Source: an uncultured Methanosarcinales archaeon
GTDB taxonomy: Archaea > Nanobdellota > Nanobdellia > Woesearchaeales > JAGWAF01
Assembly: GCA_964414985.1 (NCBI GenBank)
Contig: CAYPXA010000008.1
Location: forward strand, 11,966-43,965
Length of the DNA: 32,000 nt
Reading direction: 5' to 3'
Within the stretch, counting starts at the first letter, position 1. Every line of letters starts with the position of its first letter. The notes under the pieces were generated by a model. The model made no database searches and was not told the origin of the DNA. It saw only the letters and a program-made list of their open reading frames with translations. Shown in pieces: positions 6,619 through 22,512 of this stretch. Made by a program: the position numbers and the translations under genes.

Positions 6619-7269
6619 TCACGTTTGGCAGATTCCCAAAGCCTTCATTTTCCTGTGCAGGGTTTCATACCTTAGGCCTATGCTCCTTGCAGCCTTGGAC
6701 GCATTCATGCCGTTCTCCTGCATTGCCTTTGAAATAAACCTTTTTTCAAACTCTTCTTCAGCCTCTTTGAGGGTTAGCGGCTCCTGGGGCAGCTCCCGGA
6801 TAATGTCCTTTGAGATTTCCGCAACTCCGCCGTACATCTTTTTCATCTTCTTCGGGCTGATTATTGCCCTGTACTCTCCCAATGTTCCCTCAATTATATC
6901 CCTTACCCTGTCTTCTTGCACATAAGCCCTGCCAATCAGATTATCCCTTATGGATTCAGCGTCAATCTTCATTGAGGAAACCAGCCTGTGGATTGACCTC
7001 CTGTCGATTCCTGCAGAGTCTGCAGCCTTTGAAATGTTGCCCATGCTTGCCTGAATCAGCCTGGAAAGGTACTGCTTCCTGAACTTCTGCTTTGCCTTCC
7101 TAAATCCAAGAGAAGTGTCAATTTCCATGTCAAGAAGAGGGTTTGCAAGCCTGTCGGAAAGGTCATTCTCCATCTCGACAATCCTTGCGCCTATGAACTT
7201 CTGCATTGCGCTGTCTATAATAGGCTTGACTCTTGCCTTAACCACTTTTTCAAGGTCTTCGCGCGCCAT
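6619..7269 (-). CDS. DNA-binding protein with two Fis-type helix-turn-helix motifs
   Basis: Two copies of the Fis/NtrC C-terminal HTH pattern are present: KQYLSRLIQASMGNISKAADSAGIDRRSIHRLVSSMKI and KRFISKAMQENGMNASKAARSIGLRYETLHRKMKALGI. I prefer the start at ATG 7269 (MAREDLEK). The tracked ATG at 7302 sits directly on a TTTATAAA box (7292-7299) about 26 nt upstream of 7269, which would fit a leaderless transcript. Confidence 0.7.
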   Translation of the reverse strand: MAREDLEKVVKARVKPIIDSAMQKFIGARIVEMENDLSDRLANPLLDMEIDTSLGFRKAKQKFRKQYLSRLIQASMGNISKAADSAGIDRRSIHRLVSSMKIDAESIRDNLIGRAYVQEDRVRDIIEGTLGEYRAIISPKKMKKMYGGVAEISKDIIRELPQEPLTLKEAEEEFEKRFISKAMQENGMNASKAARSIGLRYETLHRKMKALGICQT

Positions 7270-12187: not shown

Positions 12188-12237
12188 CAAAAATGTTTAT
12201 AAACCCGCTGGCTATCTTATTTTCAGGTCAGGCAAAT

Positions 12238-12408
12238 GCGAGGGTTATTGCTAAGATGCTCTTGGCATTCCTCAGTGCAGAGCCTGGTCAAATGCGCAGG
12301 ACTTAAGTAGGGCACTCATGGTTGTACCCTGAGAAATCCTGTCTCTTAGTGAGTCCGAGGGTTCGAAATGTGCATATGCTTATGCATGCGAAATTCCCTC
12401 CCCTCGCA
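12238..12408 (+). tRNA. tRNA-Leu(UAA) with three putative BHB introns (8/9, 37/38, 59/60)
   Basis: Exons: 12238-12245, 12276-12307, 12336-12367, 12395-12408. Introns: 12246-12275 (30 nt), 12308-12335 (28 nt), 12368-12394 (27 nt). The spliced 86-mer is GCGAGGGUUGCAGAGCCUGGUCAAAUGCGCAGGACUUAAGAUCCUGUCUCUUAGUGAGUCCGAGGGUUCGAAUCCCUCCCCUCGCA. It has a 7-bp acceptor, U8, and D arm GCAG-AGCCUGGUCAA-AUGC. The anticodon arm is CAGGA-CUUAAGA-UCCUG, with a 15-nt variable arm. The T arm is GAGGG-UUCGAAU-CCCUC, with A73. TTTATAAA lies at 12196-12203 upstream and a T7 run lies immediately downstream. No CCA is encoded. Confidence 0.8.
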
Positions 12409-12430
12409 TTTTTTTATTTTTCGATTTTTT
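12409..12430 (+). terminator. oligo-T terminator after tRNA-Leu
   Basis: A T7 run starts at the nucleotide after the discriminator base, followed by T5 and T6 runs. Confidence 0.6.
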
Positions 12431-12503
12431 CGATTGATGTGAAATCTGAAGCATTAAACTTGACCTTTTTTTAAAATCGAATTTGCTGCAGAATTTTTAA
12501 GAA

Positions 12504-12995: not shown

Positions 12996-13067
12996 GCCTC
13001 TGTAGCTCAGTGGCAGAGCGCTACCTTGGTAAGGTAGAGGTCGAGGGTTCAACTCCCTCCAGAGGCT
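12996..13067 (+). tRNA. tRNA-Thr(GGU)
   Basis: Acceptor GCCUCUG/CAGAGGC. D arm GCUC-AGUGGCA-GAGC. Anticodon arm CUACC-UUGGUAA-GGUAG. Variable region AGGUC. T arm GAGGG-UUCAACU-CCCUC. Discriminator U73; 72 nt. ATTTAAAAA box about 30 nt upstream and a T-run downstream. Confidence 0.93.
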
Positions 13068-21332: not shown

Positions 21333-21591
21333 AATTCACTAAATTTAAGTTTGCATCCCTTTGTGCAATGCACTTCAAAGTGGTGGAGGATGCTTTATAA
21401 AGTTTTTTGTTTGCCAAAACAGAAACGCTTTTAAAATTTTCTATACCGTTCAGAGACAACCTTTTATGACGATAAACATAGAAACATTTATATATTAGAA
21501 CCTCATTTCCTTTTTAAGTTTATATGTGCTTGCTACTATATTTTATATTAGCACAATCGTAATCGTTTGGGGGACAAAAAGGTGGTTTAGA

Positions 21592-22512
21592 ATGACTTTT
21601 GTAAAAAAATGCCCGGAATGCGGAAGCATAAACCTATTTCTGAACAGGGACAAGGGAGAGGTTATATGCAAGGACTGCGGTCTTGTAGTTGAGGACAAGA
21701 TGGTCGAGTTCGGCCAGGAATGGCGTGAATTTGAGTCTGATGACGGCGCAAAGATGAGAAGGACAGGCGCGCCAATGACCTACACCCAGTACGACCAGGG
21801 GTTGGGCACTGAAGTCGGCCAGAGGGCAGACCTCATGAGGCTTGAGGGCAAGGAAAGAAACAAGTTTTTCAGGCTTAGAAAATGGCAGTACAGGATTTCA
21901 ACTGCAATTGAAAGAAACCTGAAGCTTGCTCTTGCAGAGCTGAAGAGGGTATCATCATTTTTGAAGCTTCCAAAATCAGTAGAAGAGGAAGCAGCTAGAA
22001 TCTACACCCTTGCAGTCCAGAGGGGGCTTGTAAGGGGCAGGAGCATGGAATCTGTTGTTGCAGGCGCATTGTATGCAGCATGCAGAAGGCATGAAGTCCC
22101 AAGGACTCTTGACGAGCTTTCTGAAGCTTCAGGCATCGAGAAAAAGGAGATTGGAAGGACCTACAGGTTTGTCACAAGGGAGCTGGGCATTTCAATACTG
22201 CCAAGCAACCCTGCAGACTACATTGCAAGGTTTGCAAGCTCGCTGAAGCTTTCAGCAGAAACCCAGAGCAAGGCTGTTGAGATTCTTGAAAAGGCGCAGA
22301 AGGTTGAGCTCACATCAGGAAGGGGCCCCACAGGAATTGCAGCAGCAGCGCTTTATGTTTCAGCTCTTATCCACGGCGAGAAAAGGACCCAGAGGGAAGT
22401 TGCAGATGTTGCCGGAGTTACTGAAGTCACAATCAGGAACAGGTACAAGGAGCTTCTCGAAGAGCTTAATCTCGACAAGGATGTGAAGAAGACTAAGAAA
22501 AAGAGAAAGTAG
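21592..22512 (+). CDS. tfb: transcription initiation factor B (TFB/TFIIB)
   Basis: N-terminal zinc ribbon CPECGS...VICKDCG, a B-reader/linker, and two cyclin-fold repeats (RIYTLAVQRGLVRGRSMESVVAGALYAACRRHEVPRTLDEL; ILEKAQKVELTSGRGPTGIAAAALYVSALIHGEKRTQREVADVAGVTEVTIRNRYKEL). Start taken at ATG 21592 with GGTGG 7 nt upstream; the tracked GTG at 21526 adds a non-homologous hydrophobic extension. Lys-rich tail KKTKKKRK. Confidence 0.93.
   Translation: MTFVKKCPECGSINLFLNRDKGEVICKDCGLVVEDKMVEFGQEWREFESDDGAKMRRTGAPMTYTQYDQGLGTEVGQRADLMRLEGKERNKFFRLRKWQYRISTAIERNLKLALAELKRVSSFLKLPKSVEEEAARIYTLAVQRGLVRGRSMESVVAGALYAACRRHEVPRTLDELSEASGIEKKEIGRTYRFVTRELGISILPSNPADYIARFASSLKLSAETQSKAVEILEKAQKVELTSGRGPTGIAAAALYVSALIHGEKRTQREVADVAGVTEVTIRNRYKELLEELNLDKDVKKTKKKRK

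What the first reader, a model, noticed from the sequence alone, without database searches (positions are those of the whole stretch)
12238..12408. tRNA-Leu(UAA) gene apparently interrupted by three BHB introns, including D-region (8/9) and T-loop (59/60) positions
A 171-nt locus is bounded by perfectly complementary acceptor halves: GCGAGGG (12238-44) and CCCUCGC (12401-07), followed by A73. A TTTATAAA box precedes it and a T7 run follows it. Removing three segments gives an 86-nt class II tRNA with every landmark. These are U8, A14, G18G19, A21, G26, loop CUUAAGA with G37, a 15-nt variable arm, G15:C48, G53:C61, T-loop UUCGAAU and A73.

Each removed segment sits in bulge-helix-bulge geometry:
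- Intron 3: T-stem, 3' bulge AUU (12393-95), 4-bp helix UUCG/CGAA, 5' bulge AAA (12366-68), then an 8-bp intron hairpin.
- Intron 2: anticodon stem, 3' bulge AAA (12334-36), 4-bp helix CUUA/UGAG, a 5' bulge AGU plus one extra A, then intron helix GGGCAC/GUACCC.
- Intron 1: 2-3 bp outer helix, 3' bulge AGU (12274-76), 4-bp helix GAGG/CCUC, 5' bulge GUU (12244-46), then a 7-9 bp intron hairpin.

The same cleavage rule (after the second bulge nucleotide) at all six sites reproduces exact 7-nt anticodon and T loops. That is hard to obtain by chance. Multi-intron tRNAs are known mainly from Thermoproteales. Such a gene is easily missed or mis-called by default tRNA finders, and it implies a broad-specificity splicing endonuclease in this organism.
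Basis: seen in the sequence. Interest (0 to 1): 0.78.

Follow-up and report, generated by a model that had tools for sequence, protein, structure and literature searches.

The report
Three-intron leucine tRNA gene, DPANN archaeon
This 171-base stretch is a real leucine tRNA gene of a tiny uncultured archaeon (Woesearchaeota-like), cut into four pieces by three short protein-spliced introns; standard tRNA finders miss it, but genes of this kind are already known, so it is a solid but fairly ordinary find.

Summary
Removing 12246-75, 12308-35 and 12368-94 gives an 86-nt sequence. ARAGORN calls it tRNA-Leu(UAA), and it folds into a class II cloverleaf. The unspliced locus is invisible to ARAGORN and to Rfam.

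All six splice sites obey one bulge-helix-bulge (BHB) rule. Geometry of this quality occurs at only about 1e-4, 1e-4 and 1e-6 of site pairs in the window.

The strongest evidence is comparative. I recovered 47 complete homologous genes, 42 of them distinct sequences, from Woesearchaeota/Nanoarchaeota genomes and metagenomes. Five of them share exactly this three-intron layout. Exons are 89% identical to the window on average, introns 50-68%. The intron helices are kept by compensatory changes.

Neighbouring genes place the organism among Woesearchaeota-like DPANN archaea. Disrupted tRNA genes, including multi-intron ones, have already been reported for DPANN lineages. The gene is therefore a new member of a known kind, not a surprise.

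Two things go beyond the finding:
- A co-varying helix between the 5' leader and the D-loop extends the short outer helix of the 8/9 intron.
- Relatives carry four, and once five, introns, above the published maximum of three.

Splicing itself, the endonuclease type and the absence of a second tRNA-Leu(UAA) gene could not be tested.

The parts
12196..12203 (+). TATA-box-like promoter element TTTATAAA, 35-42 nt upstream of G1
   Evidence: A/T-rich TATA-like boxes (TTTTTAAA, TTTAAATA, TTTATATA) lie at a similar distance upstream of most homologs. Promoter function is inferred, not tested.
12228..12233 (+). 5' leader hexamer UCAGGC, complementary to the D-loop GCCUGG (12282-87)
   Evidence: Paired in the fold of 12228-12300. 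A perfect 6/6 complement lies 4-10 nt upstream of G1 in 25 of 30 homologs with the 8/9 intron, against 7% of random windows. It co-varies with D-loop position 16: C:G 16, U:A 9, exceptions 3, Fisher p = 2e-5.
12238..12245 (+). Exon 1, tRNA positions 1-8 (GCGAGGGU)
12246..12275 (+). Intron 1 (30 nt), position 8/9. Its 3' part CCUC (12270-73) pairs with acceptor nucleotides G3-G6 to form the 4-bp helix of the BHB. Hairpin 12249-56/12260-67.
   Evidence: The hairpin is 87% paired across 26 homologs, against 39-48% for slid controls, and 6 of 8 pairs show compensatory changes.
12276..12307 (+). Exon 2, positions 9-37 (D-arm, 5' anticodon stem, anticodon UAA at 12304-06)
12308..12335 (+). Intron 2 (28 nt), canonical position 37/38. 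UGAG 12330-33 pairs with C32-A35. The 5' bulge has 4 nt.
   Evidence: ARAGORN -i reports i(39,28) when this intron alone is kept. The H helix is 95.8% paired in 30 homologs, against 31-50% slid. RNAalifold predicts the H helix and the 3-nt 3' bulge.
12336..12367 (+). Exon 3, positions 38-59 (3' anticodon stem, 15-nt variable arm, 5' T-stem, T-loop to A59)
12368..12394 (+). Intron 3 (27 nt), position 59/60 in the T-loop. A perfect hBHBh': T-stem, UUCG/CGAA, bulges AAA and AUU, 8-bp hairpin.
   Evidence: It is the minimum-energy fold, z = -3.9. Only 2 site pairs of this quality exist among 1.98 million in the window. In 19 homologs the H helix is 100% paired with UA/UG and GC/GU/AU variation, and all 8 hairpin pairs show compensatory changes.
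12395..12408 (+). Exon 4, positions 60-73 (U60, 3' T-stem, 3' acceptor strand, discriminator A73). No CCA is encoded.
12409..12415 (+). T7 run, a likely archaeal oligo-T terminator
   Evidence: T-runs follow the gene in most homologs. Inferred.

Best explanation
12238-12408 (+) is the functional gene for tRNA-Leu(UAA) of a Woesearchaeota-like DPANN archaeon. It is split into four collinear exons by three short BHB introns at 8/9, 37/38 and 59/60.

Proposed pathway (inferred from the known archaeal pathway, not tested here):
1. Transcription starts about 10-12 nt upstream, from the TATA box at 12196-12203, and ends in the T-run.
2. While the 3' acceptor strand is still unmade, the 5' part folds into one long irregular hairpin. 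Its parts are the leader UCAGGC paired with the D-loop GCCUGG, U-1/G1/C2 paired with G10/C11/A12, a 3-nt bulge, GAGG/CCUC, a 3-nt bulge, and the intron hairpin. This hairpin presents the BHB of intron 1.
3. The anticodon and T arms present the other two BHBs.
4. The splicing endonuclease EndA cuts after the second nucleotide of each of the six bulges. RtcB-type ligase joins the four exons.
5. Only after intron 1 is removed can GAGG pair with the 3' strand to form the acceptor stem. RNase P, 3' trimming and CCA addition can then finish the 86-nt tRNA.
For: Shown:
- The spliced product is tRNA-Leu(taa) with a class II cloverleaf.
- All six sites follow one BHB rule, at background frequencies of about 1e-4, 1e-4 and 1e-6.
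- The BHBs of introns 1 and 3 are the minimum-energy or centroid folds of their sub-regions.
- RNAalifold, run on five precursors with the same layout, independently recovers the H helices and 3-nt bulges of introns 2 and 3 and the intron 1 hairpin.
- There are 47 complete homologous genes, 42 of them distinct sequences. After BHB-guided splicing, 46 of the 48 genes analysed (window included) are called tRNA-Leu by ARAGORN. Five distinct homologs have the same three positions.
- Exons are 89% identical on average; introns are 50-68% identical.
- The helices show compensatory changes.
- The leader:D-loop helix co-varies.
- Archaeal context: TFB, IleRS, PolB and synteny with Woesearchaeota contigs, including a TFB 90% identical to that of L018.
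- The conformer with all three BHBs is only 4 kcal/mol above the minimum-energy fold.

Inferred: transcription start and stop, order of processing, and the enzymes.
Against: - There are no RNA data, so neither transcription nor the junctions are demonstrated.
- No EndA or RtcB gene lies in the window or in the related DPANN loci held.
- The H helix of intron 2 is not in the minimum-energy fold of this single sequence, and its 5' bulge has 4 nt.
- The BHB of intron 1 competes with the more stable acceptor stem.
- Only 32 kb of the genome is visible, so a second, intron-free tRNA-Leu(UAA) cannot be excluded.
- The H and h helices of intron 1 were fixed by my search pattern, so their invariance in the homologs says nothing.
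Confidence: 0.9

Rival explanations
1. It is a decaying or silent tRNA pseudogene. The insertions are junk that happens to fold, and a different gene supplies tRNA-Leu(UAA).
For: There are no expression data, and only 32 kb of the genome is visible. Intron 2 has a non-ideal 4-nt bulge.
Against: - Exons are under strong constraint: 62 of 86 mature positions are invariant in 32 distinct mature sequences, and mean identity is 89% against 50-68% for introns.
- The BHB helices are kept by compensatory substitutions.
- Promoter-like and terminator-like signals are kept.
- The same gene sits in the same neighbourhood in relatives.
- The only other 'tRNA-Leu(taa)' call in a relative's contig is a mis-called class I tRNA-Val homolog.
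Confidence: 0.05
2. It is a real gene with a different architecture: other splice junctions, or fewer introns plus an unusual mature tRNA (for example a junction at 9/10 instead of 8/9).
For: T12246 and T12276 make 8/9 and 9/10 give the same product in this window, so sequence alone cannot fix the junction.
Against: - The 9/10 register gives no 4-bp helix: AGGG against CUCA starts with A.A. The 8/9 register gives GAGG/CCUC with two 3-nt bulges.
- In homologs position 9 is A. There the BHB rule (cutting CCUCAG|A) reproduces the U8-A9-G10 sequence seen in relatives that lack this intron, such as L015.
Confidence: 0.03
3. It is a chance resemblance in non-coding spacer DNA.
Against: The joint chance of the BHB geometry at three pre-set junctions is about 1e-14. 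Dozens of homologs exist.
Confidence: 0.005

Closest known systems
Three-intron tRNA genes of Thermoproteales (e.g. Pyrobaculum islandicum tRNA-Pro(UGG) with introns at 25/26, 37/38 and 56/57; PMC4090602, PMC4033280)
   Same: One canonical plus two non-canonical BHB introns in a single collinear gene. The exons join to a standard cloverleaf. Position 59/60 is on the published list of non-canonical positions (PMC4090602).
   Different: The lineage is DPANN/Woesearchaeota-like, not Crenarchaeota, and the genome is AT-rich. An intron sits at 8/9, and its BHB borrows the 5' acceptor strand and is propped by a leader:D-loop helix. I did not find 8/9 in the partial position list of PMC4090602, which ends in 'etc.'.
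Cyanidioschyzon merolae nuclear tRNA-Ile(UAU), with hBHBh' introns in the D-stem, at 37/38 and in the T-loop (PMC3728597)
   Same: Nearly the same layout: D region, canonical site and T-loop. There the splicing of all three introns was verified by RT-PCR, and the outer introns are removed before the canonical one.
   Different: It is a eukaryotic nuclear gene with a different endonuclease. No experimental data exist for the window's gene.
Disrupted tRNA genes of DPANN archaea and their alpha4-type EndA with the L3 loop (Kaneta et al. 2018, PMC5829648); ARMAN-1/2 epsilon2 EndA (PMC3488258)
   Same: The same superphylum. The paper predicted tRNA genes in a Woesearchaeota and a Pacearchaeota genome. 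It links L3-bearing EndA to increased tRNA gene disruption and predicts that undetected disrupted tRNA genes remain.
   Different: The text I read does not describe this tRNA-Leu(UAA) family, its intron positions or the leader helix. The EndA of this organism is unknown.
Methanopyrus kandleri tRNA-Glu(UUC), with introns at 20b/21 and 37/38 (PMC5829648)
   Same: A D-region intron combined with the canonical intron.
   Different: It has two introns, the D-loop intron is a relaxed HBh' motif, and the host is a euryarchaeon.

Membership tests
Archaeal multiple-intron tRNA gene (BHB introns removed by EndA) | Collinear exons that join to a canonical cloverleaf with the invariant nucleotides | tested here: met
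   ARAGORN calls the 86-mer tRNA-Leu(taa). The minimum-energy fold is a class II cloverleaf. U8, A14, G18G19, the T-loop UUCGAAU and A73 are read directly from the sequence.
Archaeal multiple-intron tRNA gene (BHB introns removed by EndA) | Both splice sites of every intron lie in bulges separated by a 4-bp helix (hBHBh' or a relaxed form) | tested here: met
   Introns 1 and 3 have strict 3-4-3 geometry. Intron 2 has a 4-bp helix, a 3-nt 3' bulge and a 4-nt 5' bulge, which is a relaxed form.
Archaeal multiple-intron tRNA gene (BHB introns removed by EndA) | The BHB is kept in homologs while the intron sequence drifts | tested here: met
   Compensatory pairs occur in the hairpins of introns 1 and 3. 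The H helices are 96-100% paired. Intron identity is 50-68% against 89% for exons.
Archaeal multiple-intron tRNA gene (BHB introns removed by EndA) | The introns are actually excised and the exons ligated in vivo | not testable with these tools
   No RNA data are available.
Archaeal multiple-intron tRNA gene (BHB introns removed by EndA) | The genome encodes EndA and an RtcB-type ligase | not testable with these tools
   Neither is among the 20 window ORFs scanned against Pfam. tblastn with a recalled M. jannaschii EndA finds nothing significant in the window or in the DPANN loci held. The rest of the genome is not available.
Class II tRNA-Leu, anticodon UAA | Anticodon UAA in a 7-nt loop, a long variable arm, and discriminator A73 (the archaeal Leu identity features, from general knowledge) | tested here: met
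   Loop CUUAAGA, a 15-nt variable region with a 3-bp stem, and A73.
Split or permuted tRNA gene | tRNA pieces are encoded at separate loci or in permuted order | tested here: not met
   All four exons lie in order within 171 nt on one strand.
Group I intron in tRNA-Leu(UAA) (bacterial/plastid type) | A self-splicing intron of a few hundred nucleotides in the anticodon loop, with a group I core | tested here: not met
   The introns are 27-30 nt long. There is no Rfam intron match, even at E up to 10.

The most novel reading that the evidence does not exclude
The locus is one member of a large tRNA-Leu(UAA) gene family of Woesearchaeota/Nanoarchaeota-type DPANN archaea. As far as the searchable literature shows, the family has not been described.
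- BHB introns occupy at least eight positions: 8/9, two D-loop sites, 30/31, 37/38, the variable-arm loop, 51/52 and 59/60.
- Some genes have four introns, and one has five. Reviews and the tRNAscan-SE 2.0 paper give three as the maximum.
- The 8/9 intron is scaffolded by a co-varying 5'-leader:D-loop helix. Leader, exon 1 and intron 1 would then form one processing module that must be resolved before the acceptor stem, and hence the RNase P substrate, can form.
Probability: 0.5. Interest if true: 0.6.

Novelty: new member of a known kind. Interest (0 to 1): 0.42.

Why it matters
- **Annotation.** The gene, and every one of the 28 homologs tested, is missed by ARAGORN. A gene caller even put a 37-aa ORF over it. 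DPANN genomes therefore look as if they lack tRNA-Leu(UAA), which affects completeness and codon-usage inferences. Kaneta et al. 2018 anticipated exactly this gap.
- **Biology.** The family offers a natural series of one to five introns in a single tRNA, which could be used to study the order of BHB splicing and EndA specificity in DPANN.
- **The 8/9 intron.** It is a clear case in which the splicing motif and the mature fold exclude each other, with a leader helix apparently tipping the balance.
- **Limits.** None of this changes the known mechanism of archaeal tRNA splicing.

Tried and rejected
- **Direct detection failed.** ARAGORN, with and without -i and at a relaxed threshold, and Rfam, at gathering score and at E up to 10, find nothing at the unspliced locus. 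The weak Rfam hits there (PyrG leader, STnc480, CRISPR-DR19, E 1-8) are noise.
- **Logan contigs.** Those carrying the neighbouring LigD_N gene are 100% identical to the window and give no comparative signal. The 144-aa neighbour is not on record.
- **First splice mapping.** A plain spliced alignment misplaced the 8/9 junction and merged adjacent introns. I replaced it with a BHB-aware dynamic programme and then a two-pass version. Two homologs with relaxed 37/38 introns (L042, L068) are still mis-parsed.
- **Possible second gene.** A tRNA-Leu(taa) call in relative L069 turned out to be a class I tRNA-Val homolog with an insertion.
- **EndA search.** It found nothing in the window or the DPANN loci.
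- **Other hidden tRNA genes.** A T-loop motif scan of the window found none.
- **Readings rejected.** Group I intron and split or permuted tRNA, on intron size and collinearity.
- **Literature.** Searches for archaeal tRNAs with four or five BHB introns, or for DPANN tRNA intron surveys beyond Kaneta 2018, found nothing. Sugahara 2007 (PMC1852824) is not held.
- **Not possible here.** Scoring the 86-mer with a tRNA covariance model, because the Rfam tool reads only stored sequence.

Full report
**1. The observation**

- GCGAGGG (12238-44) is the exact complement of CCCTCGC (12401-07), and A follows at 12408.
- TTTATAAA lies at 12196-12203.
- Seven T follow the gene at 12409-15.

Joining 12238-45, 12276-12307, 12336-67 and 12395-12408 gives the 86-mer GCGAGGGTTGCAGAGCCTGGTCAAATGCGCAGGACTTAAGATCCTGTCTCTTAGTGAGTCCGAGGGTTCGAATCCCTCCCCTCGCA. 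ARAGORN calls it tRNA-Leu(taa). Its minimum-free-energy fold is a class II cloverleaf: a 7-bp acceptor stem, a 3-bp D-stem, the anticodon stem, a 3-bp variable arm and a 5-bp T-stem.

When only the two non-canonical introns are removed, ARAGORN -i reports tRNA-Leu(taa) with a 28-nt intron at the canonical site. The unspliced locus is found neither by ARAGORN in any mode nor by the Rfam tRNA model, even at E up to 10.

**2. The splice motifs**

Define c5 as the last nucleotide of the 5' exon and c3 as the last nucleotide of the intron. All three introns then fit one rule:
- The 4-bp helix H pairs c5-5..c5-2 with c3-5..c3-2.
- The bulges are c5-1..c5+1 and c3-1..c3+1.
- The outer helix h and the intron helix h' flank the motif.

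*Intron 3 (12368-94, position 59/60)* is a perfect hBHBh'. Its parts are T-stem GAGGG/CCCUC, UUCG/CGAA, bulges AAA and AUU, and an 8-bp hairpin. It is the minimum-energy fold both of the whole precursor and of the sub-region (z = -3.9, no shuffle out of 200 as good).

*Intron 1 (12246-75, position 8/9)* uses GAGG 12240-43 (acceptor positions 3-6) paired with intronic CCUC 12270-73. Its bulges are GUU and AGU, the outer helix is U-1/G1/C2 with G10/C11/A12, and the hairpin is 8 bp. This is the centroid fold of 12234-82. The alternative 9/10 register gives the same product but no helix (AGGG against CUCA).

*Intron 2 (12308-35, position 37/38)* has CUUA/UGAG, a 3' bulge AAA and a 4-nt 5' bulge. 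Its helix GGGCAC/GUACCC has one C.A mismatch. The weak A/U-rich H helix is not in the single-sequence minimum-energy fold.

In the whole window, on both strands, geometry as good as that of introns 1, 2 and 3 occurs at 8.9e-5, 1.1e-4 and 1.0e-6 of all site-and-length pairs. Three such motifs at exactly the junctions that restore 7-nt anticodon and T loops are not chance.

**3. Who carries it**

The window is archaeal. It encodes TFB (21526-22512), a class II Asp/Asn/Lys-type tRNA synthetase, IleRS and a family B DNA polymerase (the last two read from the N-terminal translations).

Translated window genes match contigs that carry homologous tRNA-Leu genes:
- The LigD_N, acylphosphatase and CBS genes immediately upstream recur in L034 (72%, 52% and 64% amino-acid identity).
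- TFB is 90% identical to that of a Candidatus Woesearchaeota MAG (L018).

The organism is therefore a Woesearchaeota-like DPANN archaeon. Three MAGs labelled 'Methanosarcinales' (L012, L014, L020) carry the same kind of gene. L012 also shares a window-like neighbouring gene, so these labels are doubtful.

**4. Comparative evidence**

Two collection scans supplied the homologs.
- *Genome scan:* a pattern spanning the T-loop intron gave 31 stretches. Of these, 14 are archaeal tRNA-Leu genes with a 59/60 intron, in Woesearchaeota, Nanoarchaeota, Odinarchaeota, Promethearchaeota and Nitrososphaerota.
- *Metagenome scan:* a pattern spanning the 8/9 intron gave 41 loci, 34 of them with a complete gene.

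A BHB-aware splice model reduces 46 of the 48 genes analysed (window included) to products that ARAGORN calls tRNA-Leu. All are 86 nt except the four non-DPANN genes, which are 83-87 nt. Five distinct homologs (L020, L035, L036, L053, L061) have exactly the window's three intron positions.

Identity to the window averages 89% for exons. For introns 1, 2 and 3 it averages 68%, 52% and 50%.

On end-anchored alignments:
- The intron 1 hairpin is 87% paired, against 39-48% for slid controls. Six of its eight pairs carry compensatory changes.
- The H helix of intron 3 is 100% paired with UA/UG and GC/GU/AU variation. All eight of its hairpin pairs carry compensatory changes.
- The H helix of intron 2 is 95.8% paired, against 31-50% slid.

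RNAalifold was run without any structure supplied by me on five precursors of the same layout. It predicts the acceptor stem, the intron 1 hairpin, and the H helices with 3-nt 3' bulges of introns 2 and 3.

One caveat applies. The H and h helices of intron 1, and the exon side of intron 3, were fixed by my search patterns, so their invariance carries no weight.

**5.

The outer helix of the 8/9 BHB has only 3 bp. Four nucleotides upstream of G1, however, the leader reads UCAGGC (12228-33), the complement of the D-loop GCCUGG (12282-87). The two pair in the fold of 12228-12300.
- A perfect 6/6 complement lies 4-10 nt upstream of G1 in 25 of 30 distinct homologs with the 8/9 intron. Only 7% of random 30-nt windows reach this, and only 3 of 7 homologs without that intron have it.
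- I then anchored on just the four invariant pairs. D-loop position 16 co-varies with its leader partner: C:G 16, U:A 9, three exceptions, Fisher p = 2e-5, not corrected for phylogeny.

Leader, exon 1, intron 1 and the 5' half of the D-arm thus form one long hairpin that presents the BHB. This fold excludes the acceptor stem. With all three BHBs and the leader helix enforced, the precursor is at -63.4 kcal/mol, against -67.4 for the minimum-energy fold with the acceptor stem. The 3' acceptor strand is transcribed about 160 nt later, so a co-transcriptional window for cutting intron 1 is plausible. That step is inference.

**6. Mechanism**

The mechanism follows the established archaeal pathway and is not tested here. 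EndA cuts in each bulge. An RtcB-type ligase joins the exons. RNase P, 3' trimming and CCA addition complete the tRNA.

- Two of the three motifs are strict BHBs. By general knowledge, archaeal EndA recognises the motif irrespective of its position.
- Only the 4-nt bulge of intron 2 is relaxed. More relaxed 37/38 motifs occur in relatives.
- Kaneta et al. 2018 report alpha4-type EndA with an extra L3 loop in DPANN lineages, associated with increased tRNA gene disruption (PMC5829648).

I could not find EndA in the window or in the DPANN loci held.

**7. Comparison with what is known**
- Multiple-intron tRNAs with up to three BHB introns are well described in Thermoproteales (PMC4033280, PMC4090602, PMC8450103).
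- Position 59/60 is on the published list of non-canonical sites.
- Cyanidioschyzon merolae tRNA-Ile(UAU) has nearly the same layout (D-stem, 37/38, T-loop), verified by RT-PCR (PMC3728597).
- Kaneta et al. predicted tRNA genes in a Woesearchaeota and a Pacearchaeota genome. They state that the missing tRNAs of DPANN genomes point to unidentified disrupted genes.

The window's gene is therefore a new, well-supported member of a known kind.

**8. Beyond the finding**

Among the 43 distinct genes (window included), 3 have one intron, 14 have two, 20 have three, 5 have four and 1 has five. This sample is biased by my search patterns.
- The five-intron gene is L039, on a 259-kb metagenome contig. 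All five of its H helices are perfect 4-bp helices, and its 86-nt product is called tRNA-Leu(taa).
- One four-intron gene is identical in two metagenomes (L046, L055).
- Reviews and the tRNAscan-SE 2.0 paper give three as the maximum. My literature searches found no archaeal case above three. The library is incomplete, so this is not proof of novelty.

**9. What remains open**
- Expression and the actual junctions.
- The EndA type.
- Whether a second tRNA-Leu(UAA) exists elsewhere in the genome. The one candidate in a relative, L069 10619-10715, is a class I tRNA-Val homolog with an insertion that ARAGORN mis-called.

**10. Verdict**

The novelty is modest. The interest lies in annotation and in the family-level features: the leader scaffold and the relatives with more than three introns.

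Noticed in passing
window 12228-12233 with 12282-12287; homologs L020, L035-L073: A co-varying helix between the 5' leader and the D-loop (UCAGGC/GCCUGG) lies 4-10 nt upstream of G1. It is present in 25 of 30 genes with the 8/9 intron and in 3 of 7 without it. D-loop position 16 co-varies with its leader partner.
   Followed up: yes
L039 about 819-1070 (Ga0233437_1000065); L045, L046/L055, L064, L066, L069: Homologous tRNA-Leu(UAA) genes have five introns (L039) or four, each with a 4-bp BHB helix. This exceeds the 'maximum of three introns' stated in PMC4033280 and PMC8450103.
   Followed up: partly
L009, L025 (Odinarchaeota), L033 (Promethearchaeota), L030 (Nitrososphaerota): tRNA-Leu genes of distant archaeal phyla also carry a BHB intron at exactly 59/60 in the T-loop, so this site is shared far beyond DPANN. 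I did not examine whether this reflects common ancestry or repeated insertion.
   Followed up: partly
L030 7194-7688, next to tRNA-Leu at 6830-6926: A homolog of the splicing endonuclease EndA lies directly downstream of the intron-containing tRNA-Leu in a Nitrososphaerota MAG. It was found by tblastn with a recalled M. jannaschii EndA (34% identity, E = 7e-23).
   Followed up: no
L001 1696-1809, equal to window 12193-12306: The public gene calls on the identical Logan contig place a 37-aa ORF over the TATA box and the 5' half of the tRNA gene. This is a likely mis-annotation caused by the missed tRNA.
   Followed up: partly
L069 10619-10715 and 9641-9728: ARAGORN's 97-nt 'tRNA-Leu(taa)' is a class I homolog of the window's tRNA-Val(GAC), with an insertion of about 24 nt. 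The neighbouring tRNA-Thr(GGU) has an 18-nt insertion in the anticodon region. Other tRNAs of this lineage are therefore interrupted too.
   Followed up: partly
L012, L014, L020 (MAGs labelled 'uncultured Methanosarcinales archaeon'): These contigs carry Woesearchaeota-type multi-intron tRNA-Leu genes, and L012 also shares a window-like neighbouring gene. The taxonomic labels look wrong, or the bins are mixed.
   Followed up: no
window 12308-12335; intron 2 of L004, L016, L021, L061, L067, L069: The canonical intron shares a conserved core (GCACU..GGUUGUACC.URAG). In relatives the core contains a second copy of the palindromic anticodon-loop sequence CUUAAG, which could pair with the intron's 3' end instead of the exon. 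This is an alternative fold that competes with the BHB.
   Followed up: no
window 12996-13067; L039 1436-1509; L069 9641-9728; L038 306-379: tRNA-Thr(GGU) lies a few hundred bases (366-623 nt) downstream of tRNA-Leu(UAA) in the window and in L039 and L069, a conserved gene order. L038 also carries both genes, about 2.3 kb apart on the same strand. The window's tRNA-Thr, tRNA-Val and tRNA-Ser genes have no introns.
   Followed up: no
window 12416-12445: A direct repeat TTTTCGATT(TT) occurs twice just after the terminator T-run. The weak Rfam CRISPR-DR19 match there (E = 2.8) is noise.
   Followed up: no
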